Source: Nanobdellota archaeon (GTDB lineage: Archaea; Nanobdellota; Nanobdellia; Pacearchaeales; GW2011-AR1). Taken from it: DNA of 64,000 bases. A model generated the notes under the pieces. The model was not told the DNA's origin and did not search any database. It saw nothing but the letters and a program-made list of their open reading frames with translations. The position numbers and the translations under genes are program-made. Every line of letters starts with the position of its first letter. Positions within the stretch are counted from its first letter, which is position 1. Location: NCBI GenBank assembly GCA_027334715.1, contig DAHWUG010000003.1:9485-73484 (forward strand). Reading direction: 5' to 3'. This document shows positions 17,241-32,281 of this stretch, piece after piece.

Positions 17241-17660
17241 ATGAAAAAAAAGAGAGAGAATTCTGAGAGGGGAAAGAAAAGCCGTGCATCTGGGGCAAGA
17301 TTTGAAATTAAAGTTAGGCAAGAACTTGAGAGTATGGGGTGGATTACTAGCAAATGGATGAATACTATTGACTATGAAAAAAACAAAATTGTTCCTGCAA
17401 AAAGAAAGTTCAACCCTTTCCTGAAAATCCTAGGTATGGGAACAGGATTTCCCGATTTTGTGTGTTTCCGAAGAAATTCAAATTCAAGCTACGAAATAAT
17501 CGGCGTTGAAGTAAAATCAAACGGATATCTTGATTCAATTGAAAGAGGAATGTGCGAGTGGCTGCTTGAAAATAAGATATTCAGCAGGATAAAAATAGCT
17601 AAAAAGGGAAAAAAGCCTGGTGAAGTTGAGTACATTGATTTCCAGGAAAAATACGGCTGA
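17241..17660 (+). CDS. PD-(D/E)XK nuclease, Holliday junction resolvase-like
   Basis: GARFEIKVRQELE, FPDFV, GVEVK. Confidence 0.75.
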   Translation: MKKKRENSERGKKSRASGARFEIKVRQELESMGWITSKWMNTIDYEKNKIVPAKRKFNPFLKILGMGTGFPDFVCFRRNSNSSYEIIGVEVKSNGYLDSIERGMCEWLLENKIFSRIKIAKKGKKPGEVEYIDFQEKYG

Positions 17661-17702
17661 AAATTTGTTAATGCAGTACAACAAATCTTATAACTTAATC
17701 GG

Positions 17703-18290
17703 ATGTGTAAAATTATGGCAAATGTTAGGGGTTTTTACATCTTAACAATTTTATTTATGCTGCTTTTTCCTGTTTTAACTTTCATTTCTGGTTCCTGTGA
17801 TTCAGAGCAAATTGACATAAATACTGCAAGTTTGTCAGAGCTTGACAAACTATCCGGAATAGGTCCTGCAAAAGCACAGGCAATAATTGATACAAGACCG
17901 TTTAGCTCTGTTGAAGACTTGATAAGAGTAAGAGGAATAGGAAATGTGACATTAAGCAGCATAAAATCACAGGGGCTTGCATGTGTTTCCAATGAAAAAA
18001 CAATAAGCAGCGAAGAAAATGTTAGTACAGAAAAAAACTCAAGCTTAAAAAATAGCCATGTTTCCACTGATAATACAACATTTTTAGCACAACCTTGCGC
18101 GCCTGAAAAAATTGAGCTTGAGACAATATATTTAAGCCCGCAAGCTATAAAAACCATTGAAAGCTCTGAAATTTCAGATAAGACAAACTATCCAATTTAT
18201 GAATTGATTTCATTTGGCACTGTGCTTGGAATTTTGTTTTTAATTAAAACACTCGCGAAAAGGAAAAAGGAAAGAAATGAGCTCCAGTGA
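17703..18290 (+). CDS. ComEA-like helix-hairpin-helix DNA-binding surface protein
   Basis: N-terminal TM; IDINTAS, LSGIGPAKAQAII, RPFSSVEDLIRVRGIG; C-terminal TM plus basic tail. Confidence 0.9.
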   Translation: MCKIMANVRGFYILTILFMLLFPVLTFISGSCDSEQIDINTASLSELDKLSGIGPAKAQAIIDTRPFSSVEDLIRVRGIGNVTLSSIKSQGLACVSNEKTISSEENVSTEKNSSLKNSHVSTDNTTFLAQPCAPEKIELETIYLSPQAIKTIESSEISDKTNYPIYELISFGTVLGILFLIKTLAKRKKERNELQ

Positions 18291-18777
18291 AGAAATAAAG
18301 GCAATGATGATTCTTGACATAATAGGTAGGCCTGCACAGCATCTAGTTGAAACTCTTGAAAAGATGATAGATGAGATGAAAACAGAGAAAGGGGTTAAGG
18401 TTGTTTCAAAAAATATAAAGGAGCCTGTGACAATGAAAGATAACAAGGAGTTCTTTGCGACTTTTGCTGAAATAGAACTGGAAGTTGAGGATATAATGAC
18501 TCTTACAGGACTGATGTTCAAGTATATGCCTGCGCATATTGAGGTAATCTCCCCTGAAAAAATAAACCTTGCAAACACGGGATGGAGCGAGGTTCTCAGC
18601 GAACTGATAAGGAGGCTTCATTCCTATGATGAGATGACAAGAATTATACAAATGGAAAATGCAAGGCTTGTGGGGGAATTGCAAAAAGCAAAGACGGGAA
18701 TTTATGTAAAAGAAATTCCTGAAAAGAATGGGGAAAATAAAAACACAGAAAAAAAATCTTCCAAAAGGAAAAAGTAA
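18277..18777 (+). CDS. conserved hypothetical protein
   Basis: 166-aa ORF (FATFAEIE, YMPAHIEVISP) overlapping the comEA stop. Confidence 0.75.
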   Translation: MSSSEEIKAMMILDIIGRPAQHLVETLEKMIDEMKTEKGVKVVSKNIKEPVTMKDNKEFFATFAEIELEVEDIMTLTGLMFKYMPAHIEVISPEKINLANTGWSEVLSELIRRLHSYDEMTRIIQMENARLVGELQKAKTGIYVKEIPEKNGENKNTEKKSSKRKK

Positions 18778-18797
18778 AGAGAATTAATTATCAAAGC

Positions 18798-20198
18798 CTA
18801 GAAAGGTTTCTTTGGCTGAACTTTCTTGTATCTTTTTTTGTAGAAAATATAAATCACAAACAATGCAACAGCAAGCAAAATCCAGCCAATCCATCCGGAA
18901 GAACTTTGCTGCGGCTCCTGGCATATTCCTGGACTGAGGCAGCAAACGCCGGGATCATTTGTGTCTTCAAACTTACCACTGCATGTCTGATTTGAGTTGC
19001 AAACTGTTCCGTTAAGCTGACTGCATGTCGTAACAATAGAAGAAATGTTCCCGGATTCATTAAAATTGCTAATGAAGTTTAGATTAAGATTAAATGATGA
19101 GGAAAAATTGCCATTGTATGCAGTAACTATTCCGTTAATTGTTGATTCATTTCCATCTGATGCAATATTAAGTTCTATCTGCTGATTTGTATTTGGATTT
19201 AAAGAAGTCACGTTACTTGGATTTAGGATAACATAAGGTTCAAGTGAAGGAGACATGTTGAAAGAAATGTTTGTTATTGTATCATTTCCGGTATTTGTCA
19301 AATACAAAATTCTTGATATGTTTGAGTTCGTTGCAAACGACACATTTACTGAATTTGGCTGAAATGCAATTTCCTGAAAACCGGAAATTTCTGTTCCTGA
19401 GCTATTTCCTGATGGCTGCTGAGCCTGGTTTGTATTAAGATAAACGGGAAGGTCAAATGTCGAATTTCCTGAGGAAAATTCAATGTAAACAAGCCCGTTT
19501 TGCGAAAACTGGCTTATCGGAAAATTTATTGTTGCTGTTTCAGCAGGATTTAATGTGACGGAGCTTGCATTTATTATTGCGCTTGTGTTTGTGCTTCCTG
19601 AGCCGAAAAGAGATGCAAAAAATCCTGAGCCGGAACTTGCTGAGTTTTCTTTCAGTCCATAATTGATTGTAATTTTACTGCCAAGAACATTTCTAAGATG
19701 CACTGAGAAATCCGTGTTCGCATTTACTGCTCCGGGATTTGTTGAAAATGCAAAGGTGTTGTTTGTTATGAAAAAATTCTGGCCGAAAGAGGCACTTGAA
19801 ATCTGGTTTGCAGCTGTGTAATAACTGACTCCTGAGATGTTCATTGAATACTCTCCGGGTGGGAATTGGGAAGAAGAGCCAGCAAGACTGGCATAAACAT
19901 AGTAATCATCACCAATCCTTACAACCCCGTCATTTATTGGAATTTGAGTGTGGCCCCTGTAAAACGCGACATAGTCTGTAGTTATTTGATTTATGAATGA
20001 ACCTGAAACAACTGTGACAAGCGTTTCTCCCTGTGAAAAATTTTGGTTCATTGAAATCTGCACTGCTGAAACAAAGGGGAAAAATAGTGCTGAAAAAAAT
20101 GTTAGCATAACCAGAAATTTTAAGGGAATAAAACCAGACATTAAGCTTTTATTATTGGCCTTAAATTTTATTCTTAATGTTTTTTCGACTGTATTCAT
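18798..20198 (-). CDS. secreted Ig-like surface glycoprotein with Cys module and C-terminal TM anchor
   Basis: signal peptide; many N-x-S/T sequons; CSQLNGTVC...CC module; WIGWILL TM followed by KKRYKK. Confidence 0.85.
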   Translation of the reverse strand: MNTVEKTLRIKFKANNKSLMSGFIPLKFLVMLTFFSALFFPFVSAVQISMNQNFSQGETLVTVVSGSFINQITTDYVAFYRGHTQIPINDGVVRIGDDYYVYASLAGSSSQFPPGEYSMNISGVSYYTAANQISSASFGQNFFITNNTFAFSTNPGAVNANTDFSVHLRNVLGSKITINYGLKENSASSGSGFFASLFGSGSTNTSAIINASSVTLNPAETATINFPISQFSQNGLVYIEFSSGNSTFDLPVYLNTNQAQQPSGNSSGTEISGFQEIAFQPNSVNVSFATNSNISRILYLTNTGNDTITNISFNMSPSLEPYVILNPSNVTSLNPNTNQQIELNIASDGNESTINGIVTAYNGNFSSSFNLNLNFISNFNESGNISSIVTTCSQLNGTVCNSNQTCSGKFEDTNDPGVCCLSPGICQEPQQSSSGWIGWILLAVALFVIYIFYKKRYKKVQPKKPF

Positions 20199-20245
20199 AT
20201 CAATTAAAGAAAAAACAGGTTAATAAATTTTAATATGCTGCAGAA

Positions 20246-22066
20246 TTACTTGCCCATCTCTTTCAGCTTCTTAAGAACTTCATCAAGCTCATTCTGGGAT
20301 TTTGAAGGCACCCTTCTTATTGGCTGTGATGGTCTTTGTGGGGGAATAATTATTCTTCTCTCAGGCATTCTTTGAATTGGTCGTGGGTAATAAGGAGGAC
20401 CTCTTGGAGGCTGCATTCCAGGCTTTGATGATGTTTTTCCTTCCTTGAAAATTATTGCCCTTAATTTTTTCCTGAAAATAATTCCTAAACCGACAAGAAC
20501 AATAAGAATGACCAAAATCCATATCCATAAAGAACTTCCCCCGCTGGATGAAGAAGATGGCGCTGTTGAAATGACGCAGCATGTATCTCCTGGCAAAGTG
20601 CATGTGTAAGAATTTGTTGCCTGTTCTCCGGTTGCACATCCTCCTGCTCTGCAAGTTCCATTGTTTGATGTGCAATCATCAGTTGAAGTTGCTGTTTGTG
20701 TAATACAACCATAATTACTGCAGCATAATTGAGATGAATTTGTGTCTGATGAAGGAAGATTAGTGTTTCCAAGTCCACAAATCTGATTTGAAGAACAAAT
20801 TTCGCCACCTTGTTCAGCACATGTTTGCTGGGAAGGTGGTGTATTACAGCATACAGACAAAGAAGAACACTGATAATTTGTAAGGATGTTTTCCTGAGAG
20901 CATTGTGCAAGCAATGTGCAGGAATGTCCTGCTGTTATACAGTCGGGAGGGCCTGTTGGTCCTCCTCCTGAAGAAAACTGCCTTGGCCATGAAGATGCAA
21001 GGATAAATGCAGTGTCTCTTATGTTTCCTGAATTCCAGCATCCGGCAGAATCCTGGGAGCCAAGAAGCCATGTCTGTGCATTTGTTTTTTCAGATGAATT
21101 TTCATTTTGCAGAGGGTAAAGTGCCAGAGCTGTATCATAATATTTGTCGCCTGATTCCATCCAGTATTCGCTGCTTTGCTGCAATAAAAGAAGGGAAGTT
21201 TTATACTGTAATTTTGCAGTCAAAGCATAAAGAAATGCATCTGGCAAAAATTTCTGGTTTTCGTCAGCCATGACAATCAGGTAAGGAAGATAGTTTGAAA
21301 TGTCCTGCCCCGCAGCGTTTAATGCAAGAGCTGCCCAGAGAGTTCCTTCATAATCGCAGGTTGTTCCTGTAGAGAAGCAGGATGATTTAACATTTTCAGT
21401 TGTTGTTCCTCCTGATGCTGCAGAGTTTGTAGTGTCTGTGACATAAACTGTTGATGACGTTGATTTCCGGAAAAGTGTTGTTGTCAAAAAATCATTAGTG
21501 CATGAAATCTGGAAATTCTTGTTGTAACATGAAGGGGAAACCTGAAGCAAATAGCCATTCTGAGAAAGTGCAAGGCAGTTTCCTGCTCCGCTGCTTAATT
21601 GCTTGTTTTCGTCTATATTAACTGTGTAAGATTGGCCGGAGTTATACTCTATAGTACAACTCGTTGAATTTGAACTGTCAATCTCAAGATACCATACAAT
21701 CTGCGTCGGTGTTGCATTTTGCGAATAAAGCCAGTTTTGCGCGCTTGATGAATCTCCACCAGAACTATTCAAGGCAAGAAGAGCCTGCGCAGTTGTCTTT
21801 ATTGAGCATCCTGATGATGGCCAGCATTTGCCAGAACCAATTGTTTTTGCGTCAGAGAGAAGATCTGACTGGCATTGCCCTATTGCAAGAAGTGAAAATG
21901 CCTTTTCTTCATCTGTCAAACTTGAGCAACTGTTGTTAATTTTATTTGACAGGCACTGGTATGCCTTGTCAATGCCCGTAAGATTTGAGGAAGTGTCTGC
22001 AGCAACAAAAGTCAAGCCAAGAAACAAAAGTATAAAGAAAATATACACCCCTCTTTTTTTCATCAT
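20246..22066 (-). CDS. secreted protein with alpha/alpha-toroid-like repeats, Cys-rich repeats, TM anchor and Pro/Arg tail
   Basis: TAxALLAL-type helices, WLLGSQDSAGCW, three C..C..C..CC repeats, LWIWILVIL TM. Confidence 0.85.
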   Translation of the reverse strand: MMKKRGVYIFFILLFLGLTFVAADTSSNLTGIDKAYQCLSNKINNSCSSLTDEEKAFSLLAIGQCQSDLLSDAKTIGSGKCWPSSGCSIKTTAQALLALNSSGGDSSSAQNWLYSQNATPTQIVWYLEIDSSNSTSCTIEYNSGQSYTVNIDENKQLSSGAGNCLALSQNGYLLQVSPSCYNKNFQISCTNDFLTTTLFRKSTSSTVYVTDTTNSAASGGTTTENVKSSCFSTGTTCDYEGTLWAALALNAAGQDISNYLPYLIVMADENQKFLPDAFLYALTAKLQYKTSLLLLQQSSEYWMESGDKYYDTALALYPLQNENSSEKTNAQTWLLGSQDSAGCWNSGNIRDTAFILASSWPRQFSSGGGPTGPPDCITAGHSCTLLAQCSQENILTNYQCSSLSVCCNTPPSQQTCAEQGGEICSSNQICGLGNTNLPSSDTNSSQLCCSNYGCITQTATSTDDCTSNNGTCRAGGCATGEQATNSYTCTLPGDTCCVISTAPSSSSSGGSSLWIWILVILIVLVGLGIIFRKKLRAIIFKEGKTSSKPGMQPPRGPPYYPRPIQRMPERRIIIPPQRPSQPIRRVPSKSQNELDEVLKKLKEMGK

Positions 22067-22074: not shown

Positions 22075-23442
22075 TTATACTTTATTTTTAAAATTATCTT
22101 TAGTGAAATTCTTTTTTCCGGCTTTACTTATTCTTTCATTAGCACGTTTTTCCTCGTGTTCGTCCCTCAGAGTTTTTCTTATCATGAAGCTTGAAGGATT
22201 TTTGTATCTCAATTCCTCCTCTGTTGGAACTATTCCTATTCCCTTGTAATAATCCTTGTCATAATTTGGCGGAGGAATCGGCTTTCCCCTAAAGCTTGAA
22301 ATCAACTGGGAGACAATATATCCCCCCTTAAGGGGAGTTTCATTTTTTTTGTTCCATTCATGAAGAATTTTTTCAATGTCTTTTCTGTCCATGCCGACTG
22401 AGCGGAAAAAATTTGTTATGATGAAAAGAGCACGCTTTCTGCCGTCGCCTTTCATTCCTTCAAGGATTTTCCTGATGCTTGGAGGATAATTCTTTTCAGA
22501 TATTGATTTCAGTGCAACTTGAGAAAATAATTTTCCTTCATAGTTTTTTTGCTCATCCTGCTCTGGATTTTGCGTCTTGTTCCAGTCAAGAGCCTCGCGA
22601 AGTAATTCTGAAGCTTCGCCATCTTTTGAATCAGGCATGAAATTCCTTATCTCAACCTTGAAAGGATCTGCATCTTTTGGCTGGAATTTCTGTATTACCT
22701 CTGGCTCTGGCTTTAAGACAACGCTTGCCAATGCTGTTTTTTCATGAAGAGAATATGGCATCCTGAAAAGATGCCTTGATGAAACAAGAATCAAGTCAGG
22801 AACAACTTCTGCTGAGGCTGAAAAATCCCTTACATATTTGTTTGGCTTTGTAAGCTGGGTTATTTTTTCCGTGAGTTCTTTTTTTGTGATGTCCATTACA
22901 TATTTTGTGATTATTCTTGGCCATTCAGGAAACATGTCAGAAGTGTTTATGTTGTAAATTGTTTTTGGAAAAGCTTTCCATGGAACAATTATGTGAAATC
23001 CCTTGCTGCCTGAAAATTTTATCCCAATATTTTTCACGCCATGAAATCTCAGGACTTTTATTATAAGCTCTGCCATTATCTTGCTGTAATCAAGATATTT
23101 TGAATCAATATCAAGCAAAAGGTCCCAGCCTGTTCTTAGTTCATTTAGTTGCTTCTGGCTCATTCCTGTTGAAATTTTCAAGGGGTCTGTCCAGATTTCT
23201 TCTGAACAATGAAAAGAAGTCGCGCCGTTTTTCACCATCTCAAAAATGTCTCCAGGATACTGGAAAGTGTCCGGTCTCTTACCAAAGCTTTCCATCATAT
23301 AGCTTGGAGCTACTTCACGATTGGCTGAAAATGAGAAGATGGCTTTCTGGATGTCTTTTCTTGAGTAATAAAGATGGTTTATTTTCCTTATTCTTTCCTC
23401 CTTAATTCTTGAAGAATCTGGTTTAGCCTGAGAATTTTCCAT
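22075..23442 (-). CDS. DNA primase, fused PriS-PriL (DPANN type)
   Basis: GWDLLLDID, KFSGSKGFHI, RHLFRMPYSLHEK, then PriL-CTD-like PPSI...DGRKRALF. Confidence 0.9.
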   Translation of the reverse strand: MENSQAKPDSSRIKEERIRKINHLYYSRKDIQKAIFSFSANREVAPSYMMESFGKRPDTFQYPGDIFEMVKNGATSFHCSEEIWTDPLKISTGMSQKQLNELRTGWDLLLDIDSKYLDYSKIMAELIIKVLRFHGVKNIGIKFSGSKGFHIIVPWKAFPKTIYNINTSDMFPEWPRIITKYVMDITKKELTEKITQLTKPNKYVRDFSASAEVVPDLILVSSRHLFRMPYSLHEKTALASVVLKPEPEVIQKFQPKDADPFKVEIRNFMPDSKDGEASELLREALDWNKTQNPEQDEQKNYEGKLFSQVALKSISEKNYPPSIRKILEGMKGDGRKRALFIITNFFRSVGMDRKDIEKILHEWNKKNETPLKGGYIVSQLISSFRGKPIPPPNYDKDYYKGIGIVPTEEELRYKNPSSFMIRKTLRDEHEEKRANERISKAGKKNFTKDNFKNKV

Positions 23443-23559: not shown

Positions 23560-24285
23560 ATGCTTGTAAAACTTGAAAACCCGCTTCTTTTGTCGAGGAT
23601 TGTTGATGTAATATCTGAGATAGTAGCAGAAGTCAGGATAAAAATCAATGAAAATGGGTTAAGCATAGATGCAATGGACCCTGCAAATGTGTCAATGGTT
23701 CATTTTGTCCTTCCAAAAAGCTCTTTTTCAAAGTTTGAAACAGGTGCAGAAGTTCTTGGAATAAACCTTGAGAACCTGAAAAGGATACTTAAGAGATCAG
23801 GGCCAGGAAGCTCTCTAATACTAGAAAAGCAGGACAATTACCTCAATATACTTATACAGGACAAGATAAAAAGAACGTTCAATCTTAGCCTTATTGAAGT
23901 TGAAAGTGAGGAAAAAGAAATGCCAAACCTTGAATTCAGCTCTGTTGTTGAATTAAATTCCACTGATTTAATTGACTCAATTGAAGACTGCGCTGTTGTT
24001 GCAGATGCATGCGCCTTTGTTGTCAAGGATAGCAAATTTATTATTGAAGCAAAGGGACTAAACAGCGCAATGTCTGAATTTTCAGCAGATGAGGCAAAGA
24101 TTTCTGCAGAAAACTGCAAATCAAGATACAGCCTGGAATATCTGCAGAAATTCGTGAAGGCATCAAGGCTCTCTGACAAAACAGTTCTCCGTTTTGCAGA
24201 TGACCACCCATTAAGAATGGATGTAAAAAATGATTTTCTTGAGCTGTCATTTCTTCTCGCGCCCCGTGTCGAAACCGAAGATTAA
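23560..24285 (+). CDS. pcn: PCNA sliding clamp
   Basis: AMDPANVSMV, YSLEYL, DHPL, FLLAPRVE. Confidence 0.96.
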   Translation: MLVKLENPLLLSRIVDVISEIVAEVRIKINENGLSIDAMDPANVSMVHFVLPKSSFSKFETGAEVLGINLENLKRILKRSGPGSSLILEKQDNYLNILIQDKIKRTFNLSLIEVESEEKEMPNLEFSSVVELNSTDLIDSIEDCAVVADACAFVVKDSKFIIEAKGLNSAMSEFSADEAKISAENCKSRYSLEYLQKFVKASRLSDKTVLRFADDHPLRMDVKNDFLELSFLLAPRVETED

Positions 24286-24321
24286 AACAAGATTTATAAA
24301 CAAAATTTTCTTGTATAAACA

Positions 24322-25117: not shown

Positions 25118-26923
25118 ATGGCAAAAGAGTGTGATTTAAGCATAAGAGAAAGAAATTATGTGATTAGCAAAAAGAAGTTATTAACTATTTTTCTAATAGC
25201 GGGAATTTTGGCATTAACAATTTTATTCTTTACAAATAAAGTTTCTGCAGATACACCTGCAAATTCATATTGCTGCGAAAAATTACAAGGCGGTGGATGG
25301 TGTCAGAATGTAAATGACATTTCTTTGTGTGCAACAGGAAATGGATTAAGCACTCCTGCACCAACTTCATGCCAGTCAACAAGCTATTGCAGGCTTGGGA
25401 CATGTGTTAATCCCCAGGAGGGTACATGCTTGCCAAATGTTCCATCACAGGTTTGTCAGAACAGCAAGGGAACATGGTTTGACGGAACTCCTAGCACAAT
25501 TCCTCAGTGCAAGCTTGGATGCTGTTTCATTGGAGACCAGACAGCATTTGTCACCCAGACAAGGTGCAAGAATTTTGCAGGTGTTTACGGAGTGAATACA
25601 ACATTCAGGACAGATATAACAGATGAAACAACATGCATTGAAAGCGCAAACCCTCAGCAAATGGGCGCTTGTGTTCTGGATAATGGCGTGACACGAAACT
25701 GCAGACTTTTGTCAAGAGGTGATTGTCAGCAGCTGCAAACAGCCTCTTCAGGTAATACAACTGTAGAATTCCATGAAGGCCTTTTGTGCACTGCAGAAAC
25801 CCTGAACACAGAATGTGCGCCTACAAAAAATACAGAATGCGTCCCTGGACAGGATCAGGTTTATTTTGTTGACTCATGTGGAAACATGGCAAATGTTTAT
25901 GACTCTTCAAAACTAAAGGACCCAACATACTGGACAAACATAATTGATCCTTCTGCAAGCTGTAATCCTGGATCAAGCAATGCCGGCTCTTCTTCATGTG
26001 GCAACTGCAACTATCTTGCAGGAAGCACCTGTAAACCATACCAGAGAGGAAACCAGCAAACACCTAATCAGCCAAGCACTGGAAATTTTGTATGCGCTGA
26101 TTTGAGCTGTCATTACAATGGGAAGGTTTATTCTCAAGGCTCAAGCTGGTGCGTAACGAATACGCAAGGGGCAAGCAGCAATTCTCCTGGAAGCGAATAT
26201 GCGGTGCAAAGATGCTTCAATGGAGAAGTCACTACAGAATTGTGCGACCCTTACAGGAACCAGGTTTGTCTTCAAGGTTCTCTCAACGGAAGCAGCAGCA
26301 GTTTTCCTGTTGCGGAATGCGCTGTAAACAGATGGGAGGATTGCACTGTGCAAACAAATGAGCAAGACTGTTTGAACACTGACCAAAGAGACTGCAAGTG
26401 GGTAAATCTGACAAGCGCTACAGATGAAAATGGGAATCCTGTTGTTGTCAACAGCAACGGAACTCTCGTTCCTCAAGGCCAAGGACAGAAATTCTATGTG
26501 GGAACAGTTAATGTCGGGGGATTTAGTTTACAGTTAACAAAGGAAATTGGCGCTGCATGCGTTCCAGAATATTCTCCAGGATTTGTTTTCTGGAACGGCA
26601 CACAGGACAGCAAAGATAGTGGGTTGGCAAGTCCCCAGGCTATATGTGCACAGGCAAACCAGAAATGTGTTGTCAAATTCACAAGAAACGCAGTTGGCGG
26701 CTTTCTTGGGATTTCAAGCTGGTCATGCCAGAGTGGTTGCGAATGCGTCGGACTTTCCAAAGGAGCTCATCTGCCAGACATTAATGCAGTCTCACAGTGG
26801 ATAAACCAAAGGATGGGGATGTGTGTTTCCATTGGTGATTGCGGCAACAAAACAAATTACATTGGAAATCCAGGATATAATAGTAATATCAACAATTTTG
26901 TTACAATATCAAAAGGTCAATGA
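25118..26923 (+). CDS. very Cys-rich secreted protein
   Basis: signal peptide; dense C, CC and CxC motifs over 601 aa. Confidence 0.85.
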   Translation: MAKECDLSIRERNYVISKKKLLTIFLIAGILALTILFFTNKVSADTPANSYCCEKLQGGGWCQNVNDISLCATGNGLSTPAPTSCQSTSYCRLGTCVNPQEGTCLPNVPSQVCQNSKGTWFDGTPSTIPQCKLGCCFIGDQTAFVTQTRCKNFAGVYGVNTTFRTDITDETTCIESANPQQMGACVLDNGVTRNCRLLSRGDCQQLQTASSGNTTVEFHEGLLCTAETLNTECAPTKNTECVPGQDQVYFVDSCGNMANVYDSSKLKDPTYWTNIIDPSASCNPGSSNAGSSSCGNCNYLAGSTCKPYQRGNQQTPNQPSTGNFVCADLSCHYNGKVYSQGSSWCVTNTQGASSNSPGSEYAVQRCFNGEVTTELCDPYRNQVCLQGSLNGSSSSFPVAECAVNRWEDCTVQTNEQDCLNTDQRDCKWVNLTSATDENGNPVVVNSNGTLVPQGQGQKFYVGTVNVGGFSLQLTKEIGAACVPEYSPGFVFWNGTQDSKDSGLASPQAICAQANQKCVVKFTRNAVGGFLGISSWSCQSGCECVGLSKGAHLPDINAVSQWINQRMGMCVSIGDCGNKTNYIGNPGYNSNINNFVTISKGQ

Positions 26924-26941
26924 TAAAAAATAGTAATTAAG

Positions 26942-29398
26942 ATGATAATACAAACAAACAAAAAAGGAATGAGTTTCAAGAATAAATCTCTGGCATTGTT
27001 TCAGGCAGCAACAATTGTTCTCAGCATAATTGCATTCACTTATCTTGTTGCAATGACTATACCAAGTGTGAGTGCGTTCCCACCTGGACAATGTGCAATA
27101 ATTGATAAAGGGACATCTACAGAATCATATTGGCAAATGGGAAGCAATAATATGCTGAGCTGTGTTACAGGACATTGTAACCCACCAACAACAGACACGT
27201 TCACTGAAAATAATTTTTGTGTTGTATGGCTTGGATGTGGTACATCTCAAGGAGGTTCACATTGCAGCTCAATTTGCAGTCAGCAAAGTGATGGCTCTTG
27301 GTCAGTTAAATCAAGTGCTTTAGGATCTTGCCCTGCAGCTTCACCTTCTAGCAATTCAAGAAATCTACTCGATACTGCAAATACAGTTGTGGATACAGCT
27401 AATAGTATTACGAGTATTCCTACTAATGCGGGGGGAATAAAGGATATTTTAAAAGGTATAACATCAGGGGTTACATCTGATGTTAAGAATCTTAAAGGAT
27501 TTACCTTCAATGCGCCCAACCCGTCATTCCTTGATAATTTTGCTAATCCAAATCCTTATACAGGGGTTAAGGGTTGGATTTTTAACCCAACTATAGCGGG
27601 GAAATTGAGCATTGCAAATATTGTCGCGACAGCTGCAACTGCAGCAGGACTTTATGCTGTTACACAATGGGCTTTTGGAAAAGCAGGAGCAAATGCTGAA
27701 TTTTCACATGCAGCAGGACTGGGTGTTGGTGCAGGATATTTTGCAAGCCAGATAGTGTCAAAACTTGGAATAAAAATTCTTGGATTTGGAAGCACAGGGG
27801 TGGGAGTTATAGTTGGGATAGCTGTTTTATTAATTTCATGGAAAAGTGTAAGATACCAAAGCTATCAATTCAACTGTTATCCATGGACGCCGCCAACAGG
27901 GGGGCATGATTGCTCCAAATGCAATAATGGCCAATTGCCATGCACAGAATATACTTGCAGAAGCCTTGGACAAGGCTGTGAGTTGGTGAATCAGGGAACA
28001 GGGGAAGAACTTTGCGTATGGAACAACAGCAGAGATGTTACTCCTCCTATAATGCAGCCATGGTTAGATATCCTTACTCCAGGGTACAAGTATACGCCAG
28101 ACAATACATTATCTCCCCCTAATAATGGAGTAAAGATTGTGCCTTTGAACGACAATAACGGATGCATAAATTCAAGCAGCTCCCTAACATTCGGAGTAAC
28201 TACAAATGAGCCTGCAATATGCAAATGGGACACAGACAGCAGCCTCAATTTCTCAAGTATGAATAATTTCTTCGACGGAAGTCCTGTTGCAATCTACAAT
28301 CACAGCCAGATGCTTACTCAGTTGCCTGATGCAAATGCACTTGCTGCAGAAAACGCAACAATTGAGAACGGAAACAAGTATTCAATCTATGCAAGCTGCC
28401 AGAACACAAATGGGTATGCAGATGTAGGAGATTTTGTTTTCAAGTTCTGCGTAAACCCAAGCCCTGACACAGAAGCGCCATTGATAGAGACAACAAGCAT
28501 ACTTAACGGAAGCCCTATAGAATTCAACACAAGCTCTGTAAATCTTAGTGTTTTTGTGAAAGACAGTTATCCTGTTAATTGCAGATGGAGCAGCAATGAC
28601 CAGGATTACAGCACAATGGAAAATAACATGACCTGCCCTGAAAGCATTGTCCAGGTGAATGACCAGGGACTTTACCAGTGCAAGACGACACTTAATGGTC
28701 TCATTAGTTCCCAGAACAACACTTTCTATTTCAGATGCCAGGACACTTCTCCTCAGCAAAATAAGAATTCGCAGTCTTATGCTTATACTCTTATAGGAAC
28801 ACAGCCATTGATAATAACCTCTGTTGGTCCTAATAGCACAGTAATAAATTCAACAAATGTCGTAAAAGTGACGCTTACAGCAACTACTGCTGCTGGTTAC
28901 AATCAAGGAGACTCTCAATGCTCATTCAGCACCACAGGAAATACAGGAAGCTATGACACTTTCTTCAGCGACGCAGGAAATAATTTCAACAATTACCAGC
29001 ATTCACAGGACGTTTATCTTGTCCCTGGAAACTACAATTATTACATACAATGCATTGACCAGGGGGGAAATACTGCTACAAACATGACAAGTTTCACAGT
29101 CCAATCAGATACAAGTCCCCCTATTGTTGTAAGGGCATATAATGATAACAATAACTTGAAGATTATAACTGACGAGAATTCAACATGTGTTTACAATACA
29201 GACAGCAATATAGGCTGCACATACCAATTCAGCGACGGTTCACCAATGCAGAATTCACAGGGAAATGTAAACCAGATTGCATGGGATGTAACAAAGACAT
29301 TCTACATAAAATGCATGGACAGCTTCGGCAACCAGCCAGATAGTGATGCATGCAGCATAATTGCAAGCCCCTACAGCATAAGCAACAGCAATCAATAA
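26942..29398 (+). CDS. large secreted protein with Cys-rich N-terminus, internal Gly/Ala hydrophobic segment and Ig-like repeats
   Basis: signal peptide; AATAAGL...GVGVIVGIAVLL segment; repeated D-x-P-P-I...YxxCxD..GN domains. Confidence 0.85.
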   Translation: MIIQTNKKGMSFKNKSLALFQAATIVLSIIAFTYLVAMTIPSVSAFPPGQCAIIDKGTSTESYWQMGSNNMLSCVTGHCNPPTTDTFTENNFCVVWLGCGTSQGGSHCSSICSQQSDGSWSVKSSALGSCPAASPSSNSRNLLDTANTVVDTANSITSIPTNAGGIKDILKGITSGVTSDVKNLKGFTFNAPNPSFLDNFANPNPYTGVKGWIFNPTIAGKLSIANIVATAATAAGLYAVTQWAFGKAGANAEFSHAAGLGVGAGYFASQIVSKLGIKILGFGSTGVGVIVGIAVLLISWKSVRYQSYQFNCYPWTPPTGGHDCSKCNNGQLPCTEYTCRSLGQGCELVNQGTGEELCVWNNSRDVTPPIMQPWLDILTPGYKYTPDNTLSPPNNGVKIVPLNDNNGCINSSSSLTFGVTTNEPAICKWDTDSSLNFSSMNNFFDGSPVAIYNHSQMLTQLPDANALAAENATIENGNKYSIYASCQNTNGYADVGDFVFKFCVNPSPDTEAPLIETTSILNGSPIEFNTSSVNLSVFVKDSYPVNCRWSSNDQDYSTMENNMTCPESIVQVNDQGLYQCKTTLNGLISSQNNTFYFRCQDTSPQQNKNSQSYAYTLIGTQPLIITSVGPNSTVINSTNVVKVTLTATTAAGYNQGDSQCSFSTTGNTGSYDTFFSDAGNNFNNYQHSQDVYLVPGNYNYYIQCIDQGGNTATNMTSFTVQSDTSPPIVVRAYNDNNNLKIITDENSTCVYNTDSNIGCTYQFSDGSPMQNSQGNVNQIAWDVTKTFYIKCMDSFGNQPDSDACSIIASPYSISNSNQ

Positions 29399-29549: not shown

Positions 29550-30083
29550 ATGGGGATGGAGAATAGAAAAAGAGGAATGAAAAAATCAGGCCAGACAGAA
29601 ATTTCGTTCGGAATGATTTTTTCAATAATACTCATAATATTTTTTCTGGCAGCTGCATTTTACGCGATAAAAGTATTCATGGGATTTAGTGACACCGCAA
29701 AAGCAGGGAAATTTTACACTGATTTGCAGTCAGACATCAAAAACATATGGGGAAATTCTGCATTCAGCTCGGGCCAGCATGATTATATCATTCCAAGCGG
29801 GATAAACCTGGTTTGCTTTGTGGATTTTTCCTCTGATGCAAAAGGCAAGAATTCAAACCTTTACACAGATTTGAAAATGGGAACCTATACAGGAGATGAG
29901 AATCTTGTTCTTTATCCCCTAAAGCATAACAATTTTGATTCAAAGCGAATAGATTACATAGACTTGTCCGAAATAACCTCTGCGGAAAATCCATTTTGCA
30001 TACAAACCAGCAACGGAAAAGTTTCAATGATTTTGAAAAAAGACATTGGACAGGATTTGGTGACAATAACGAGAGCAGGATAG
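29550..30083 (+). CDS. pilin-like protein with class III signal peptide
   Basis: KKSGQ/TEISFGMIFSIILII. Confidence 0.8.
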   Translation: MGMENRKRGMKKSGQTEISFGMIFSIILIIFFLAAAFYAIKVFMGFSDTAKAGKFYTDLQSDIKNIWGNSAFSSGQHDYIIPSGINLVCFVDFSSDAKGKNSNLYTDLKMGTYTGDENLVLYPLKHNNFDSKRIDYIDLSEITSAENPFCIQTSNGKVSMILKKDIGQDLVTITRAG

Positions 30084-30128: not shown

Positions 30129-31100
30129 ATGACAAGCGGTAAAAGTTTCTTTAATAAAAGGTTAAAGTCAGATAAGGAGGGGTTTCTGCAGATTCCATTC
30201 TCATGGCTGTTTGCAATAGTAGTCGGGGCGATAATAATTTTCTTTGCAATATATTTTACCACAAAATTGATGGGAACAGAGACAAAGGTTTCAACAGTGG
30301 AGACAGGCAGCCAGATAAATGTCCTTTTAAATCCTCTCGAAACAAGTTTTGGCGAGGAACAGGTTACAGCATTGTCAATACCTGTTGAAAGCCTGTTGAG
30401 CAACAACTGCGATAATGCAGGAAATTTTGGAAGCCAGCAGATAGTTGTCTCGCAGAAAGCAGGGGGCCAGTGGACAGACATAAACATTGCGCCAACATCG
30501 CATAATAAGTATATTTTCTCAAATGACAGCGTTGAAGGAAAGAATTTCTATCTTTTTTCAAAGCCGCTTGCACTGCCTTTCAAAGTCGGCGATTTGATTT
30601 ACCTGACTTCTGCAAATGATAATTACTGCTTTGTATCTGCACCACAGACAATTCAGGACGAGCTTTCAAACCTTAAACAGGGGAATATCTTCATTGCAAA
30701 CTGCCCTTCAAACAGCATAAATGTCTGCTTTTCACAGGCATCAAACTGCAGCATCACTGTTGACCAAAACCAGAAATCTGTGGAAAAAAACGGGCATACA
30801 ATGTATTATGAAACAGATGCTTTGATGTACGGAGCCATTTTTTCAAATCCAGATGTTTACGAATGCCAGATTCAGAGATTAATGAAAAGAACTAACGAGC
30901 TTTCAACAATTTACAATGACAAGGAAACAATTATATCGATTTCAGGGGGATGTCCTGTTGATGCCAGCCTTAGCGTAGATCTTCTAAACCTCGGAGAAGC
31001 TGCAAAATCTGTAAATAGCTCATCTGATTTGATAAATGTAAGGGCAATTGCAGACAACGCTGGATTGGAAAACAGCGTTTCTCCCTGCCCATTATGGTAA
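30129..31100 (+). CDS. pilin-like/secreted protein with class III-like signal
   Basis: KEG/FLQIPFSWLFAIVVGAIII; Cys pairs. Confidence 0.75.
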   Translation: MTSGKSFFNKRLKSDKEGFLQIPFSWLFAIVVGAIIIFFAIYFTTKLMGTETKVSTVETGSQINVLLNPLETSFGEEQVTALSIPVESLLSNNCDNAGNFGSQQIVVSQKAGGQWTDINIAPTSHNKYIFSNDSVEGKNFYLFSKPLALPFKVGDLIYLTSANDNYCFVSAPQTIQDELSNLKQGNIFIANCPSNSINVCFSQASNCSITVDQNQKSVEKNGHTMYYETDALMYGAIFSNPDVYECQIQRLMKRTNELSTIYNDKETIISISGGCPVDASLSVDLLNLGEAAKSVNSSSDLINVRAIADNAGLENSVSPCPLW

Positions 31101-31104
31101 AATA

Positions 31105-31632
31105 ATGACAAAAATGCTGAAAAATAAAAAAGCGCAGATGAAGATACAGCAGATGGCTTTCATGCTTCTGGCTGTGACTTTGTTTTTCGCAATTGCAGGC
31201 CTGTTTGTAATTACAATAAGCTTCTCAGGCATAAAGCAGTCTGCAGATCTTATTAAGGAGCAGAATGCGCTTCTTCTTGTTTCAAAAATAGCTGATTCGC
31301 CTGAATTTGCCTGCGAAAATGCATTTAACCAGCCTATGACAAACTGCATTGACACAGACAAGGCAATGGCCCTGAAAAAAAACATCCAGGATTACAGGAA
31401 TTTTTGGGGAATTTCAGGCTTGGAGATGATATGGGTTTACCCTGATAATAACACAGGTACAGAGTGCACAACAGAAAACTATCCTGAATGCGGGGAGATA
31501 ACGCTGATTCCTGTGGCAAATGGGACAGGAATTGGAAATTTTGTATCTTTATGCAGAAAAGCAATAGACAATAATTCAATACCTTACAATCAATGTGATT
31601 TGGGGAAGATCATAGTGATTTACAATGGCTAA
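31105..31632 (+). CDS. pilin-like protein with class III signal peptide
   Basis: KKAQ/MKIQQMAFMLLAVTLFF; SPEFAC and other Cys. Confidence 0.8.
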   Translation: MTKMLKNKKAQMKIQQMAFMLLAVTLFFAIAGLFVITISFSGIKQSADLIKEQNALLLVSKIADSPEFACENAFNQPMTNCIDTDKAMALKKNIQDYRNFWGISGLEMIWVYPDNNTGTECTTENYPECGEITLIPVANGTGIGNFVSLCRKAIDNNSIPYNQCDLGKIIVIYNG

Positions 31633-31765
31633 AATAAGAGATAAAGCAGCTAAAGAAGATAAAAGATTAATAATGAAAATTTGGAATATGTTAAATTATA
31701 GCTTTTGCCTTGGAGATGGGCTGACATATTGGCTTAAGTAAAGGTTATACAAATAAAAAGACAAT

Positions 31766-32281
31766 GTGCGAAGAAAAATGGGAATGGTAAACTTAAAGAA
31801 AAATCAAAATTACATCAAAAGAGGTCAGGAAGAAATAGTCGGCTTTGTAATAATTGTAGTAATTGTTTCCTTAATCCTTGTTTTTTTCCTTGTTTTCTCC
31901 ATGAATAGTGTTCCCCAGACTAACAGCTATGAAGTTTCAAGCTTTTTAGGCTCTGCAATTCATTACACAACAACATGCCAGATTGATTCAGCATATCTTT
32001 CTGTAAGCGATCTTGTAAGTTCATGTTTGCAGAATGCAACATGCTCAGATGGCCAAAATTCATGCGATAATTTAAATCAGACTCTTAATACTTTAATGAA
32101 AAAAGGCTGGCGTTGGGGTCAGAATTTACCTGTAAAGGGTTATAGTCTAAATATTGTTTCCAGCTTCGGCAATGTTTTATCAGTCCAGAATGGAAATATA
32201 ACATCCACTTACAAAGGAGCTCAAGAAATACTTCCTGTTTCAAGCGCAAATATAACTGTTTCTGTGACTATTTATTCTTGA
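31766..32281 (+). CDS. pilin-like protein with class III signal peptide
   Basis: KRGQ/EEIVGFVIIVVIVSLILV; start codon uncertain. Confidence 0.78.
   Translation: MRRKMGMVNLKKNQNYIKRGQEEIVGFVIIVVIVSLILVFFLVFSMNSVPQTNSYEVSSFLGSAIHYTTTCQIDSAYLSVSDLVSSCLQNATCSDGQNSCDNLNQTLNTLMKKGWRWGQNLPVKGYSLNIVSSFGNVLSVQNGNITSTYKGAQEILPVSSANITVSVTIYS

What the first reader, a model, noticed from the sequence alone, without database searches (positions are those of the whole stretch)
17241..32281. Candidate undescribed surface apparatus built around primase and PCNA
Seen: a resolvase-like nuclease, ComEA and two TM-anchored Cys-module proteins precede primase and PCNA. Then come, co-oriented with PCNA, five class III signal-peptide proteins (KRGQ, KSGQ, KEGF, KKAQ, KRGQ) and two very large Cys-rich secreted proteins, followed by an HTH regulator and the S-layer gene. 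No pilus ATPase, TadC or prepilin peptidase is in the window. Known: class III signals mark type IV pilin-like subunits, ComEA binds incoming DNA, and DPANN cells depend on host contact. Inference: a minor-pilin/tip complex with disulfide-rich adhesins for host attachment or nucleic-acid uptake, possibly co-expressed with replication and feeding the AMP/RuBisCO salvage route.
Basis: partly seen in the sequence, partly recalled or inferred. Interest (0 to 1): 0.8.

Follow-up and report, generated by a model that had tools for sequence, protein, structure and literature searches.

The report
Conserved pilin-and-adhesin operon beside PCNA
Seven neighbouring genes for five pilin-like proteins and a large disulfide-rich surface protein, kept in the same order across a whole class of tiny symbiotic archaea, probably build a cell-surface attachment device, and their place next to DNA-replication genes looks incidental.

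Summary
Five proteins (24322-25101, 29550-32281) carry conserved class III (prepilin-type) N-termini. Two Cys-rich proteins of 601 and 818 aa lie between them.

- **Conservation.** The order PCNA, pil259, 601Cys, 818Cys, pil177, pil323, pil175, pil171, wHTH (minus strand), S-layer is kept in most of 20 loci from the same order. The four small pilin genes stay together in the same order in 19 of 20 distant loci of the class. There they follow one giant membrane-anchored Cys-rich protein, and PCNA is nearby in only 3.
- **The large proteins.** 601Cys and 818Cys are two halves of one adhesin-like protein; they are fused in 11 ORFs.
- **Predicted binding.** The head domains of pil323 and pil175 are predicted to bind (ipSAE 0.84, best control 0.07).
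- **Machinery.** ATPases, platform proteins and a prepilin peptidase are encoded on other contigs.
- **Replication link.** pil259 has its own positionally conserved TATA-like box, so coupling to replication is unlikely. No ComEC was found, and the ComEA link is not conserved.

Verdict: this is an undescribed, class-wide accessory module of a type IV filament system, made of minor pilins plus an anchored giant adhesin. It is not an apparatus built around primase and PCNA. Its function, probably host or surface adhesion, is inferred.

The parts
24293..24300 (+). TATA-like box TTTATAAA, 29 nt before the pil259 ATG, inside the 36-nt PCNA-pil259 spacer
   Evidence: Sequence. A TATA-like motif starts at -36..-24 in 22 of 28 pil259-family genes, against 4.8% of 5000 random positions.
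24322..25101 (+). pil259: large pilin-like protein (class III-type N-terminus MEKRG|QVTFFIIIAIIII), always directly upstream of the large Cys-rich protein(s)
   Evidence: Q6 and F10 invariant in 28 sequences. It is duplicated together with the Cys-rich genes in 8 of 20 loci. A paralogue precedes a 2385-aa protein on contig C2. No Pfam or NCBIfam family.
25118..26923 (+). 601Cys: secreted, 44-Cys protein; the N-terminal half of a split giant adhesin
   Evidence: It is fused in frame with an 818Cys-like part in 11 ORFs of 1207-1364 aa in 9 of 20 loci. No family found.
26942..29398 (+). 818Cys: signal sequence, variable N-domain, three-helix hydrophobic module (224-299), Cys knot (312-358), then four to five Ig/FN3-like domains
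   Evidence: AF2 model, pLDDT 79.5. Foldseek matches only tandem Ig/FN3 ectodomains and adhesin repeats. Hydropathy. 46 invariant columns, 25 of them Cys. Found in 138 of 151 genomes of the order.
29550..30083 (+). pil177: small pilin-like protein, first gene of the four-pilin cassette, with a TATA-like box upstream (29521-29527)
   Evidence: A TATA-like motif lies at -36..-24 in 12 of 18 orthologues.
30129..31100 (+). pil323: pilin-like protein with a 48-residue N-terminal helix, a beta-sheet and a C-terminal three-helix bundle
   Evidence: AF2 model, pLDDT 87, pTM 0.79. Its profile is found in 167 of 201 genomes of the phylum sample. Predicted to bind pil175.
31105..31632 (+). pil175: small pilin-like protein, predicted partner of pil323
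   Evidence: Five of its seven most conserved residues (P66, E67, D83, K86, Y97) lie in the predicted interface.
31778..32281 (+). pil171: small pilin-like protein (…KRG|QEEIVGF…), last gene of the cassette
   Evidence: E23 and G26 invariant, Q21 nearly invariant, in 37 sequences.
32374..32727 (-). winged-helix regulator (HVO_A0114 family), convergent with the cassette and divergent from the S-layer gene
   Evidence: PF25212, E 7.4e-17. Present at this place in 16 of 20 order-level loci.
33158..35788 (+). S-layer protein gene, conserved neighbour in the order
   Evidence: S_layer_C, 28.3 bits. Follows the cassette in 16 of 20 order-level loci and 4 of 20 class-level loci.
23560..24285 (+). PCNA: conserved neighbour, probably not part of the module
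   Evidence: Upstream of pil259 in 16 of 20 order-level loci, with a gap of 1.3 kb or less in 13. Near the module in only 3 of 20 class-level loci.
22075..23442 (-). Fused PriS-PriL-type primase, divergent from PCNA; a neighbour only
18798..22066 (-). Two type I membrane proteins (466 aa and 606 aa) with a shared membrane-proximal Cys module and C-terminal anchors. They belong to the family-level surface-gene block; membership in the module is unproven.
17703..18290 (+). ComEA-like membrane-anchored HhH protein; a neighbour in the family only
   Evidence: HHH_3, E 1.2e-16. It is the only HHH_3 match in the genome. Seen in 3 of the 20 order-level windows, though many windows end before this position. 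Seen in 0 of 20 class-level loci.

Best explanation
Genes 24322-32281 form a conserved accessory module of a type IV filament (T4F) system. The module has two probable transcription units.
- Unit 1 (pil259-601Cys-818Cys) encodes a large pilin-like protein and a split giant surface protein. That protein is disulfide-rich, carries Ig/FN3-like domains, and is held in the cell's own membrane by a hydrophobic helix module.
- Unit 2 (pil177-pil323-pil175-pil171) encodes four small 'minor pilin'-like proteins.

Shown in silico: the genes, their conserved prepilin-type N-termini, the class-wide gene order, the fusion of the two large proteins, a pilin-like N-terminal helix in pil323, and a confident predicted pil323-pil175 head-to-head interface.

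Inferred:
- The prepilin peptidase on contig C2 trims all five proteins.
- A T4F motor encoded elsewhere assembles them. The best candidate is the class-universal 760-aa ATPase with its ~9-TM partner. The product would be a short filament or priming complex.
- That complex works together with the anchored giant adhesin in contact with host cells or surfaces.

The neighbouring PCNA, primase and ComEA genes are conserved neighbours, not parts of the module.
For: 1. **Prepilin-type N-termini.** The pattern is a basic n-region, then G or A, then about 20 hydrophobic residues. It is conserved in each of the five families across 16-27 order-level orthologues and 14-20 class-level orthologues. Four families have Gln at +1, as described for EppA-processed pilins of M. 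maripaludis (PMC3875500, passages).
2. **Fold of pil323.** The model has a 48-residue N-terminal helix followed by a beta-sheet (pLDDT 87).
3. **Gene order.** The four-pilin cassette follows 818Cys in 16 of 20 order-level loci. All four genes keep the same order in 19 of 20 class-level loci that were picked on pil323, while the flanks differ. The pil323 profile is found in 167 of 201 sampled genomes.
4. **The large proteins are one unit.** 601Cys and 818Cys are fused in 11 ORFs. In 9 of the 10 distant loci whose ORFs I listed, a single ORF of 1045-2170 aa with 33-118 Cys ends right at pil177. Seven of those 10 also have a pil259-like gene upstream.
5. **The large proteins look like adhesins.** The giants carry Big_13, fn3, CarboxypepD_reg and TSP3 domains. 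They match the Ig-domain region of the 818Cys profile at E 1e-7 to 1e-11.
6. **Predicted binding.** With all transmembrane helices removed, pil323 against the three small pilins scores ipSAE 0.84 (three runs: 0.85, 0.83, 0.84). The best of 3 controls scores 0.07. That mark was reached by 58 of 80 solved complexes and 2 of 110 mismatched pairs. The runs agree in at least 65% of contacts and the partner's pLDDT is at least 81. The interface is with pil175.
7. **Machinery in trans.** Two T2SSE ATPases, two T2SSF platform proteins and one Peptidase_A24 lie on other contigs. T2SSE is found in 201 of 201 sampled genomes and the ~9-TM partner in 200 of 201. By my reading of the tables, 27 of the 32 genomes with a single, weak T2SSE match also have pil323.
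8. **Link to one machinery locus.** Relatives of two pilin-like genes of the window genome's ATPase760/peptidase locus lie within about 6 kb of pil171 in 10 of 20 distant loci, on the opposite strand in one. In most they directly follow the cassette.
9. **Own promoter.** A conserved TATA-like box lies about 30 nt before pil259 and before pil177, but not before the internal genes.
Against: - No Pfam, NCBIfam or PDB-sequence match links any of the seven proteins to known pilins.
- The pil323 model has no significant Foldseek match. VIA-align matched only its long helix.
- Signal-peptide cleavage, assembly and expression are not shown.
- The Glu at +5 typical of many pilins is missing. Glu sits at +3 or +6 in three families and is absent in two.
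- In the complex job only the pil323-pil175 interface was confident. pil177 and pil171 were not confidently placed against pil323, and pairs that do not involve pil323 were not scored.
- Conserved residues of pil323 are not clearly enriched in the interface (2 of 10 class-wide conserved head residues).
- The adhesin is anchored in the producer's membrane. This does not fit a simple pilus-tip adhesin and leaves its physical link to the pilins open.
- The module is never next to an ATPase, so the cognate motor is a guess.
- The loci were chosen on 818Cys or pil323 hits, so counts for those two genes hold by construction.
Confidence: 0.6

Rival explanations
1. Pedestal or pseudopilus model. The five pilin-like proteins never form a long pilus. 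They form a short, membrane-rooted, T2SS-like pseudopilus or collar that threads, holds or moves the anchored giant adhesin through the S-layer.
For: - The giant proteins carry their own membrane anchors. In the window this is the internal helix module of 818Cys. In distant lineages it is a single C-terminal TM plus a basic, Pro-rich tail, seen in 9 of 11 giants examined.
- The operon is tight, with overlapping or near-touching genes.
- The S-layer gene is next door in 16 of 20 order-level loci.
- No gene of the module looks like a small, abundant major pilin. Candidates of about 90-120 aa lie elsewhere or downstream.
Against: There is no direct evidence for contact between the pilins and the adhesin. 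The distinction from the best explanation is one of geometry only. S-layer adjacency is lost in 16 of 20 class-level loci.
Confidence: 0.2
2. Not pilins. The N-termini are plain signal-anchors, and the proteins are bitopic membrane proteins of an envelope or S-layer anchoring complex unrelated to type IV filament machinery.
For: - No pilin family or fold match was found.
- The module is never linked to an ATPase in 40 loci.
- The S-layer gene is adjacent within the order.
Against: - A plain anchor does not explain the strictly conserved [KR]-[GA]-Q just before the hydrophobic stretch in five unrelated families.
- The long N-terminal helix of pil323 is pilin-like.
- The module sits next to further pilin-like genes whose relatives lie beside the ATPase and peptidase in the window genome.
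Confidence: 0.1
3. Competence reading. A DNA- or nucleotide-uptake pilus works with ComEA and feeds nucleotide salvage.
For: - A membrane-anchored HHH_3 (ComEA-like) protein lies 6 kb upstream.
- It was seen in 3 of the 20 order-level windows (L040, L044, L046). Many windows end before that position.
- RuBisCO and an AMP-phosphorylase-like gene are in the same 64-kb window.
Against: - No ComEC (PF03772) match in the 90%-complete genome.
- ComEA is separated from the module by five genes, three of them on the other strand.
- My ComEA profile hit 0 of 20 class-level loci. That profile was built from only 4 sequences.
- The large proteins look like adhesins, not DNA binders.
Confidence: 0.06
4. 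Replication-coupled expression. The module is co-transcribed with PCNA so that surface contact and genome replication are coordinated.
For: - The module is co-oriented with PCNA, and the spacer is only 36 nt in the window.
- PCNA lies 1.3 kb or less upstream of pil259 in 13 of 20 order-level loci and next to it in 2 loci of other families (L063, L066).
Against: - A TATA-like box at a fixed distance before pil259 in 22 of 28 orthologues argues for an own promoter.
- PCNA is absent from 17 of 20 class-level windows.
- Gaps of 3-5 kb occur in 3 order-level loci. There is no PCNA in the 7.7 kb upstream of pil259 in L053.
Confidence: 0.05

Closest known systems
Bacterial type IVa pilus minor-pilin/PilY1 operon (FimU-PilV-PilW-PilX-PilY1-PilE) and the T2SS GspH-I-J-K set
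   Same: Both have a set of four small pilin-like proteins encoded together with one further pilin and a large non-pilin adhesin. Heteromeric contacts run through head domains; this is predicted here for pil323-pil175. The bacterial facts are recalled, plus the abstract start of PMC13190605 seen in the listing.
   Different: No sequence or fold match was found. The large protein here is anchored in the producer's membrane. There is no ATPase or platform gene in cis. The organism is an archaeon with an S-layer.
Methanococcus maripaludis Epd pili (EppA-processed pilins EpdA-E, MMP1685)
   Same: Both have a class III signal ending in Gly with Gln at +1. Both have several minor pilins that are essential besides a small major pilin. 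In both, pilin genes sit in loci separate from the ATPase and membrane components (PMC3875500, passages read).
   Different: The +5 Glu is not kept here. No Pfam model of any kind matched at E<=0.1. A giant Cys-rich protein is part of the operon here.
Accessory sets of archaeal T4P loci described by Makarova et al. 2016 (PMC4858521)
   Same: That paper describes small predicted minor pilins, a large signal-peptide protein (adhesin or minor pilin) and a large protein with a C-terminal TM and conserved cysteines in Thermoproteales loci. It also describes secretion ATPases that serve pilin sets encoded elsewhere (passages).
   Different: Those sets sit beside their ATPase and TadC. [quoted passage not shown] The families here have no assigned family, and arCOG membership was not tested.
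Type IV pili of episymbiotic Saccharibacteria (PMC11623550)
   Same: Both organisms are ultrasmall episymbionts in which T4P are predicted or shown to mediate host binding. I saw only the abstract start in the listing.
   Different: That system is bacterial, has canonical pilins and has experimental support. Here the function is inferred only.
Long fibrillar adhesins built of tandem Ig/FN3-like repeats
   Same: The best Foldseek matches of 818Cys are tandem Ig/FN3 arrays. They include the Aureispira grappling-hook protein GhpA and a 'large adhesion protein' repeat.
   Different: The matches are generic beta-sandwich arrays with TM-scores of 0.1-0.35. They do not show specific homology.

Membership tests
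Type IV pilin-like proteins (class III signal peptide substrates) | Short basic n-region ending in Gly/Ala, followed at once by about 20 hydrophobic residues | tested here: met
   All five proteins. Conserved in 16-27 order-level and 14-20 class-level orthologues per family.
Type IV pilin-like proteins (class III signal peptide substrates) | Gln at +1, as in EppA-type archaeal pilins (PMC3875500) | tested here: met
   Conserved in pil259, pil177, pil175 and pil171. Variable (F/A/Y/V/Q) in pil323.
Type IV pilin-like proteins (class III signal peptide substrates) | Glu at +5 of the mature protein | tested here: not met
   Glu is at +3 (pil171 and most pil323) or +6 (most pil175, but Gln in the window's copy). 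It is absent in pil259 and pil177. Many archaeal pilins also lack it (PMC3875500 passage).
Type IV pilin-like proteins (class III signal peptide substrates) | Long N-terminal alpha-helix packed against a beta-sheet head | tested here: met
   Tested for pil323 only: helix 24-71, strands 79-161. The other four proteins were not modelled alone.
Type IV pilin-like proteins (class III signal peptide substrates) | Match to a curated pilin family or a solved pilin structure | tested here: inconclusive
   No Pfam or NCBIfam family at E<=0.1. No PDB sequence match for profiles A2 and A3. No Foldseek match at E<=0.001, and VIA-align matched only the helix.
Type IV pilin-like proteins (class III signal peptide substrates) | Prepilin peptidase, assembly ATPase and platform protein in the genome | tested here: met
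   Peptidase_A24 at C2:30250; T2SSE at C3:50030 and C2:22118; T2SSF at C3:52185 and C3:53429.
Type IV pilin-like proteins (class III signal peptide substrates) | Actual cleavage and incorporation into a filament | not testable with these tools
   Needs biochemistry or imaging.
Minor-pilin plus large-adhesin module (FimU-PilVWX-PilY1 / GspHIJK type) | Four small pilin-like genes kept together in a fixed order | tested here: met
   16 of 20 order-level loci and 19 of 20 class-level loci; single copy in the window's genome.
Minor-pilin plus large-adhesin module (FimU-PilVWX-PilY1 / GspHIJK type) | Subunits bind each other through head domains | tested here: inconclusive
   The prediction supports pil323-pil175: ipSAE 0.84, best of 3 controls 0.07. 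The mark was reached by 58 of 80 solved complexes and 2 of 110 mismatched pairs. Contacts agree in at least 65% and the partner's pLDDT is at least 81. The other subunits were not confidently placed. This is a model, not a measurement.
Minor-pilin plus large-adhesin module (FimU-PilVWX-PilY1 / GspHIJK type) | The large adhesin is a soluble, filament-borne protein without its own membrane anchor | tested here: not met
   818Cys has a conserved hydrophobic helix module. 9 of 11 distant giants have a single C-terminal TM plus a tail.
Minor-pilin plus large-adhesin module (FimU-PilVWX-PilY1 / GspHIJK type) | Homology to GspH/I/J/K, PilV/W/X or PilY1 | tested here: inconclusive
   No hit in Pfam, NCBIfam, PDB sequences or fold searches.
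Self-contained type IV filament locus | ATPase, platform protein and peptidase encoded beside the pilins | tested here: not met
   None on the window's contig. No hit of the machinery profiles in 20 class-level loci of 20 kb. The ~9-TM partner lies 40-300 kb from the cassette wherever both are on one contig.
Competence (DNA-uptake) pilus system | ComEA plus a ComEC channel, genetically linked to the pilins | tested here: not met
   ComEA-like HHH_3 is present. ComEC (PF03772) was not found in the 90%-complete genome. ComEA is not near the cassette in 20 class-level loci (the profile was built from 4 sequences).

The most novel reading that the evidence does not exclude
This module may be the universal host-contact organelle of Woese-/Pacearchaeota-type archaea. 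In this reading a type IV filament motor, working through a dedicated four-minor-pilin complex plus the pil259 adaptor, deploys or pulls on a giant disulfide-rich fibre. The fibre's variable outer domain, which is LysM in some relatives, recognises the host. Its hydrophobic helix module takes part in membrane contact. In the Pacearchaeota branch, its retention beside PCNA-primase would reflect a real coupling of host contact to replication.
Probability: 0.12. Interest if true: 0.85.

Novelty: new variant of a known kind. Interest (0 to 1): 0.6.

Why it matters
Woese- and Pacearchaeota-type archaea are abundant and uncultivated, and they are thought to depend on hosts. How they attach to a host is unknown.

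This module has three features that make it a good candidate:
- It is nearly universal in the sampled class.
- It is single-copy in this genome.
- Its giant protein changes quickly while its pilin set stays fixed. That pattern is expected of a host-recognition device.

The module yields concrete, testable parts: a predicted pil323-pil175 pair, five candidate peptidase substrates, and an adhesin with a variable outer domain.

It would also be a functional counterpart in archaea of the bacterial minor-pilin-plus-adhesin module.

In the papers I could search I found no description of it:
- searches;
- passages of PMC4858521, PMC13705601 and preprint 10.64898/2026.05.13.725050.

Supplementary tables and figures of those papers were not seen. 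They include S10 Fig of PMC13705601, which shows DPANN loci, and they may bear on this claim.

Tried and rejected
- **Expression.** No RNA holder was listed for 22900-32300. Two DNA runs of one study hold the stretch, and one of them may be the source. One RNA run of that study holds next to none of its words.
- **Fold of pil323.** Foldseek against the PDB gave 0 matches at E<=0.001. VIA-align over 48,161 chains gave a best Z of 6.0, all on the long helix 20-75. The head domain was not searched alone, so I make no claim of a new fold.
- **PDB sequence profiles** for pil259 and pil323 gave nothing below E 0.6.
- **ESM Atlas.** It returned only unnamed Nanobdellota clusters for pil259 and 601Cys.
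- **NCBIfam.** None of the seven proteins matched.
- **Range beyond the phylum.** With the 818Cys protein alone it gave only 3 loci. The range outside the phylum is therefore untested. All 201 genomes of the 'phylum' sample were labelled 'same class' or closer.
- **Complex job.** pil177 and pil171 were not confidently placed against pil323. Pairs not involving pil323 were not scored.
- **VRR-NUC-like protein.** A PDB sequence search gave nothing meaningful.
- **601Cys against the distant giants.** The profile gave no hit even with filters off. Only the Ig region of 818Cys is shared with them.
- **Rejected: the module as a mobile or viral insert.** Base composition is flat across it, and it is a stable core feature.
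- **Rejected: the plus-strand ORF 32363-32785 as a gene.** The conserved gene there is on the minus strand.

Full report
**What is in the sequence.** The window lies on contig C4 of a 588-kb, 10-contig genome that is 90% complete. Close relatives are titled Pacearchaeota or Woesearchaeota.

Pfam gives the following:
- a ComEA-like HHH_3 protein at 17703-18290;
- a PriS/PriL-type primase at 22075-23442 on the minus strand;
- PCNA at 23560-24285;
- an S-layer protein at 33158-35788;
- a winged-helix regulator at 32374-32727 on the minus strand;
- only a sub-threshold VRR_NUC match for 17241-17660.

None of the five pilin-like proteins or the two large Cys-rich proteins matches any Pfam or NCBIfam family. 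The two minus-strand proteins of 466 and 606 aa have signal sequences, C-terminal anchors and a shared Cys module.

**The pilin-like signals are real.** The five N-termini are KRG|Q, KSG|Q, KEG|F, KKA|Q and KRG|Q, each followed by a strong hydrophobic stretch. Each family has its own conserved motif. The motifs hold in 16-27 orthologues from 20 loci of the same order and in 14-20 more from 20 loci spread over the class.
- Class-wide consensus: pil177 K[KR][AG]Q..GQVF; pil323 KKG..E[IV]QFNW; pil175 [KR][KR]AQ[IV]KM.ET; pil171 [KR][KR][AG]QMEI[MI]GL.
- Consensus within the order only: pil259 K[KR]GQVTIF.

A signal ending in Gly with Gln at +1 is what is described for EppA-processed pilins of Methanococcus maripaludis (PMC3875500, passages). 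The +5 Glu of those pilins is not kept here. The AlphaFold2 model of pil323 (36-row alignment, pLDDT 87, pTM 0.79) has a 48-residue N-terminal helix, a beta-sheet and a C-terminal three-helix bundle. That is a pilin-like layout. Its head has no significant Foldseek match, and VIA-align matched only the helix.

**Conservation of the neighbourhood within the order.** The 818-aa protein is found in 138 of 151 genomes of the order, and in 67 of 69 high-quality ones. I took 20 loci of 20 kb around such hits and tabulated them:
- The trio pil259-601Cys-818Cys is present in all 20. This holds by construction for 818Cys. The 818Cys-containing unit is tandemly duplicated in 8 (in L047 and L051 not every copy has a detected pil259).
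- The cassette pil177-pil323-pil175-pil171, then the minus-strand regulator and the S-layer gene, follow in 16.
- PCNA lies upstream in 16, with a gap of 1.3 kb or less in 13 and of 3-5 kb in 3. In L053, 7.7 kb upstream of pil259 hold no PCNA.

**Conservation across the class.** A profile of pil323 is found in 167 of 201 genomes of the 'phylum' sample, all labelled 'same class' or closer. I took 20 loci around such hits from other families and searched them with profiles of every gene of the block:
- All four small pilin genes are present in the same order in 19. In L063 a large gene is inserted between pil323 and pil175. In L061 three of the four are detected.
- PCNA is in the window in 3 and the S-layer gene in 4.
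- ComEA, primase and the two minus-strand proteins are in none.
- No ATPase, platform or peptidase profile hits any locus.

The stable unit is therefore the pilin-adhesin module, and the flanks change. That contrast serves as the control for general synteny.

**The large proteins.**
- 601Cys and 818Cys are read as one ORF of 1207-1364 aa in 11 cases in 9 of the 20 order-level loci.
- In 9 of the 10 class-level loci whose ORFs I listed, a single ORF of 1045-2170 aa with 33-118 Cys ends at or overlaps the start of pil177. In 7 of those 10 a pil259-family gene of 409-713 aa precedes it.
- The model of 818Cys (pLDDT 79.5) has a signal helix, a small variable N-domain, a disordered linker, three helices (224-299), a Cys knot and four to five beta-sandwich domains.
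- Foldseek matches only tandem Ig/FN3 ectodomains and adhesin repeats.
- In a 48-row alignment, 25 of the 46 invariant columns are Cys.
- Some homologues carry Big_13, DUF4625 or LysM domains. Distant giants carry Big_13, fn3, CarboxypepD_reg and TSP3 repeats.

Only the third helix of 818Cys is strongly hydrophobic across homologues. In fused forms both flanking halves are Cys-rich. I therefore infer that the helix module crosses the membrane an even number of times and that both halves lie outside the cell. Nine of 11 distant giants have a signal sequence, a huge ectodomain, one transmembrane segment 100-280 residues before the C-terminus, and a basic, Pro-rich tail. With filters off, the Ig region of the 818Cys profile matches their ectodomains at E 1e-7 to 1e-11. 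These are thus giant, membrane-anchored, fibrillar surface proteins. That fits an adhesin but not a simple pilus-tip passenger.

**Do the pilins bind each other?** I sent the four small pilins with all transmembrane helices removed, each with its alignment, and with pil323 as the scored partner. Results:
- ipSAE was 0.84 (runs 0.85, 0.83, 0.84).
- The best of 3 controls was 0.07.
- That mark was reached by 58 of 80 solved complexes and 2 of 110 mismatched pairs.
- The runs agree in at least 65% of contacts, and the partner's pLDDT is at least 81.
- The tool notes that these counts hold only roughly for my own alignments and for a four-chain job.

The confident interface joins the C-terminal helix bundle of pil323 to residues 57-102 and 151-160 of pil175. 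Replacing pil175 drops the score to 0.07. Five of the seven most conserved pil175 residues (P66, E67, D83, K86, Y97) lie in the interface, which covers about a quarter of the chain. For pil323 the enrichment is not clear. pil177 and pil171 were not confidently placed against pil323.

**Machinery.** The genome has two T4F-type loci on other contigs:
- C3:46424-55409 holds pilins, a 514-aa ATPase and two TadC-like proteins.
- C2:20906-31068 holds a 760-aa ATPase, a 719-aa ~9-TM protein, seven small pilin-like genes and the Peptidase_A24 homologue.

T2SSE is found in 201 of 201 sampled genomes. The 719-aa protein is found in 200 of 201 at about 40% identity, and in most genomes with a single match. 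By my reading of the tables, 32 genomes show a single, weak T2SSE match like that of the 760-aa ATPase, and 27 of them have pil323. The tool warns that matches are not copy numbers. Relatives of two pilin-like genes of the C2 locus (268 aa and 115 aa) lie within about 6 kb of pil171 in 10 of 20 class-level loci, directly after the cassette in most and on the opposite strand in one. Seven of the 268-aa matches reach well beyond the hydrophobic segment. This ties the module to the C2-type system by neighbourhood in other genomes. It is an inference, not proof.

**Relation to PCNA, ComEA and salvage genes.**
- The 36-nt PCNA-pil259 spacer holds TTTATAAA 29 nt before the ATG.
- A TATA-like motif starts at -36..-24 in 22 of 28 pil259-family genes and 12 of 18 pil177 genes. 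The figures for the other genes are 0 of 20 (601Cys), 5 of 26 (818Cys), 3 of 17 (pil323), 1 of 17 (pil175) and 0 of 17 (pil171). The background is 4.8% of random positions.
- This suggests two transcription units with their own promoters. Read-through from PCNA is not excluded.
- No ComEC was found.
- RuBisCO and an AMP-phosphorylase-like gene are in the window but 19 and 28 kb away.

**Comparison with what is known.** The module works like the bacterial minor-pilin/PilY1 or GspHIJK sets, and like the accessory sets that Makarova et al. described in archaeal T4P loci (PMC4858521, passages). It fails or leaves open the homology tests. It is detached from any ATPase, and its adhesin is self-anchored. 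M. maripaludis also keeps its pilin genes apart from the ATPase. I found no description of this cassette in three searches or in passages of three papers. Their supplements were not seen. All named homologues are 'hypothetical protein'. The pil323 profile finds 1179 proteins at E<=1e-5.

**Verdict.** It is best read as a new variant of a type IV filament accessory module, made of minor pilins plus an anchored giant adhesin and served in trans. The 'built around primase and PCNA' and nucleic-acid-uptake readings are not supported. The function (adhesion to host or surface) and the geometry (pilus, pseudopilus or pedestal) remain inferred.

Noticed in passing
G000 contig C2:20906-31068 (locus L079): A divergent T4F-type locus. 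It holds a 760-aa ATPase with a weak T2SSE match (E 2.2e-14), a 719-aa ~9-TM protein with no T2SSF match, seven small pilin-like genes and the prepilin peptidase. The 719-aa protein is found in 200 of 201 sampled genomes at about 40% identity, so it is a core gene of the class with no assigned family here.
   Followed up: partly
G000 contig C2:50938-59998 (locus L080): A second pair of the same kind: a 633-aa pil259-family pilin-like protein directly before a 2385-aa protein (52 Cys, no Pfam match). No four-pilin cassette follows it.
   Followed up: partly
window 4044-5345 (+) and 60035-61525 (-): A RuBisCO large-subunit homologue (PF00016, E 9.7e-81) and an AMP/thymidine-phosphorylase-like protein.
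   Followed up: no
window 1984-2541 (+): A further 185-aa protein with a class III-like N-terminus (…KKGQMEMSMGTIVTIVLLVIV…). It weakly matches the N-terminal part of the pil177 and pil323 profiles.
   Followed up: no
window 36031-37266 (+), 37271-38454 (-): Two small membrane proteins downstream of the S-layer gene are also syntenic, in 15 and 10 of 20 order-level windows. A VTT/DedA-domain protein and a polytopic 179-aa protein follow them. The conserved surface-gene block therefore extends past the S-layer gene.
   Followed up: no
window 39223-40953 (-) and 47333-49558 (-): Two more secreted surface proteins: one with Ig/FN3-like domains (DUF4625, fn3_6, weak) and one with a PD40 beta-propeller plus a He_PIG Ig domain.
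   Followed up: no
homologues P0030 and P0103 of the 818-aa protein: The poorly conserved N-terminal domain of 818Cys is replaced by a LysM domain (PF01476) in some relatives. This hints at glycan or cell-wall binding and at swapping of the outer domain.
   Followed up: no
window 20246-22066 (-) compared with giants in L059-L078: The C-terminal end of the 606-aa protein (Cys modules, one TM, basic Pro-rich tail) has the same layout as the C-terminal end of the distant giant proteins. No profile match was found between them.
   Followed up: partly
window 32363-32785 (+): This 140-aa plus-strand ORF overlaps the conserved minus-strand wHTH gene and is probably not a gene.
   Followed up: yes
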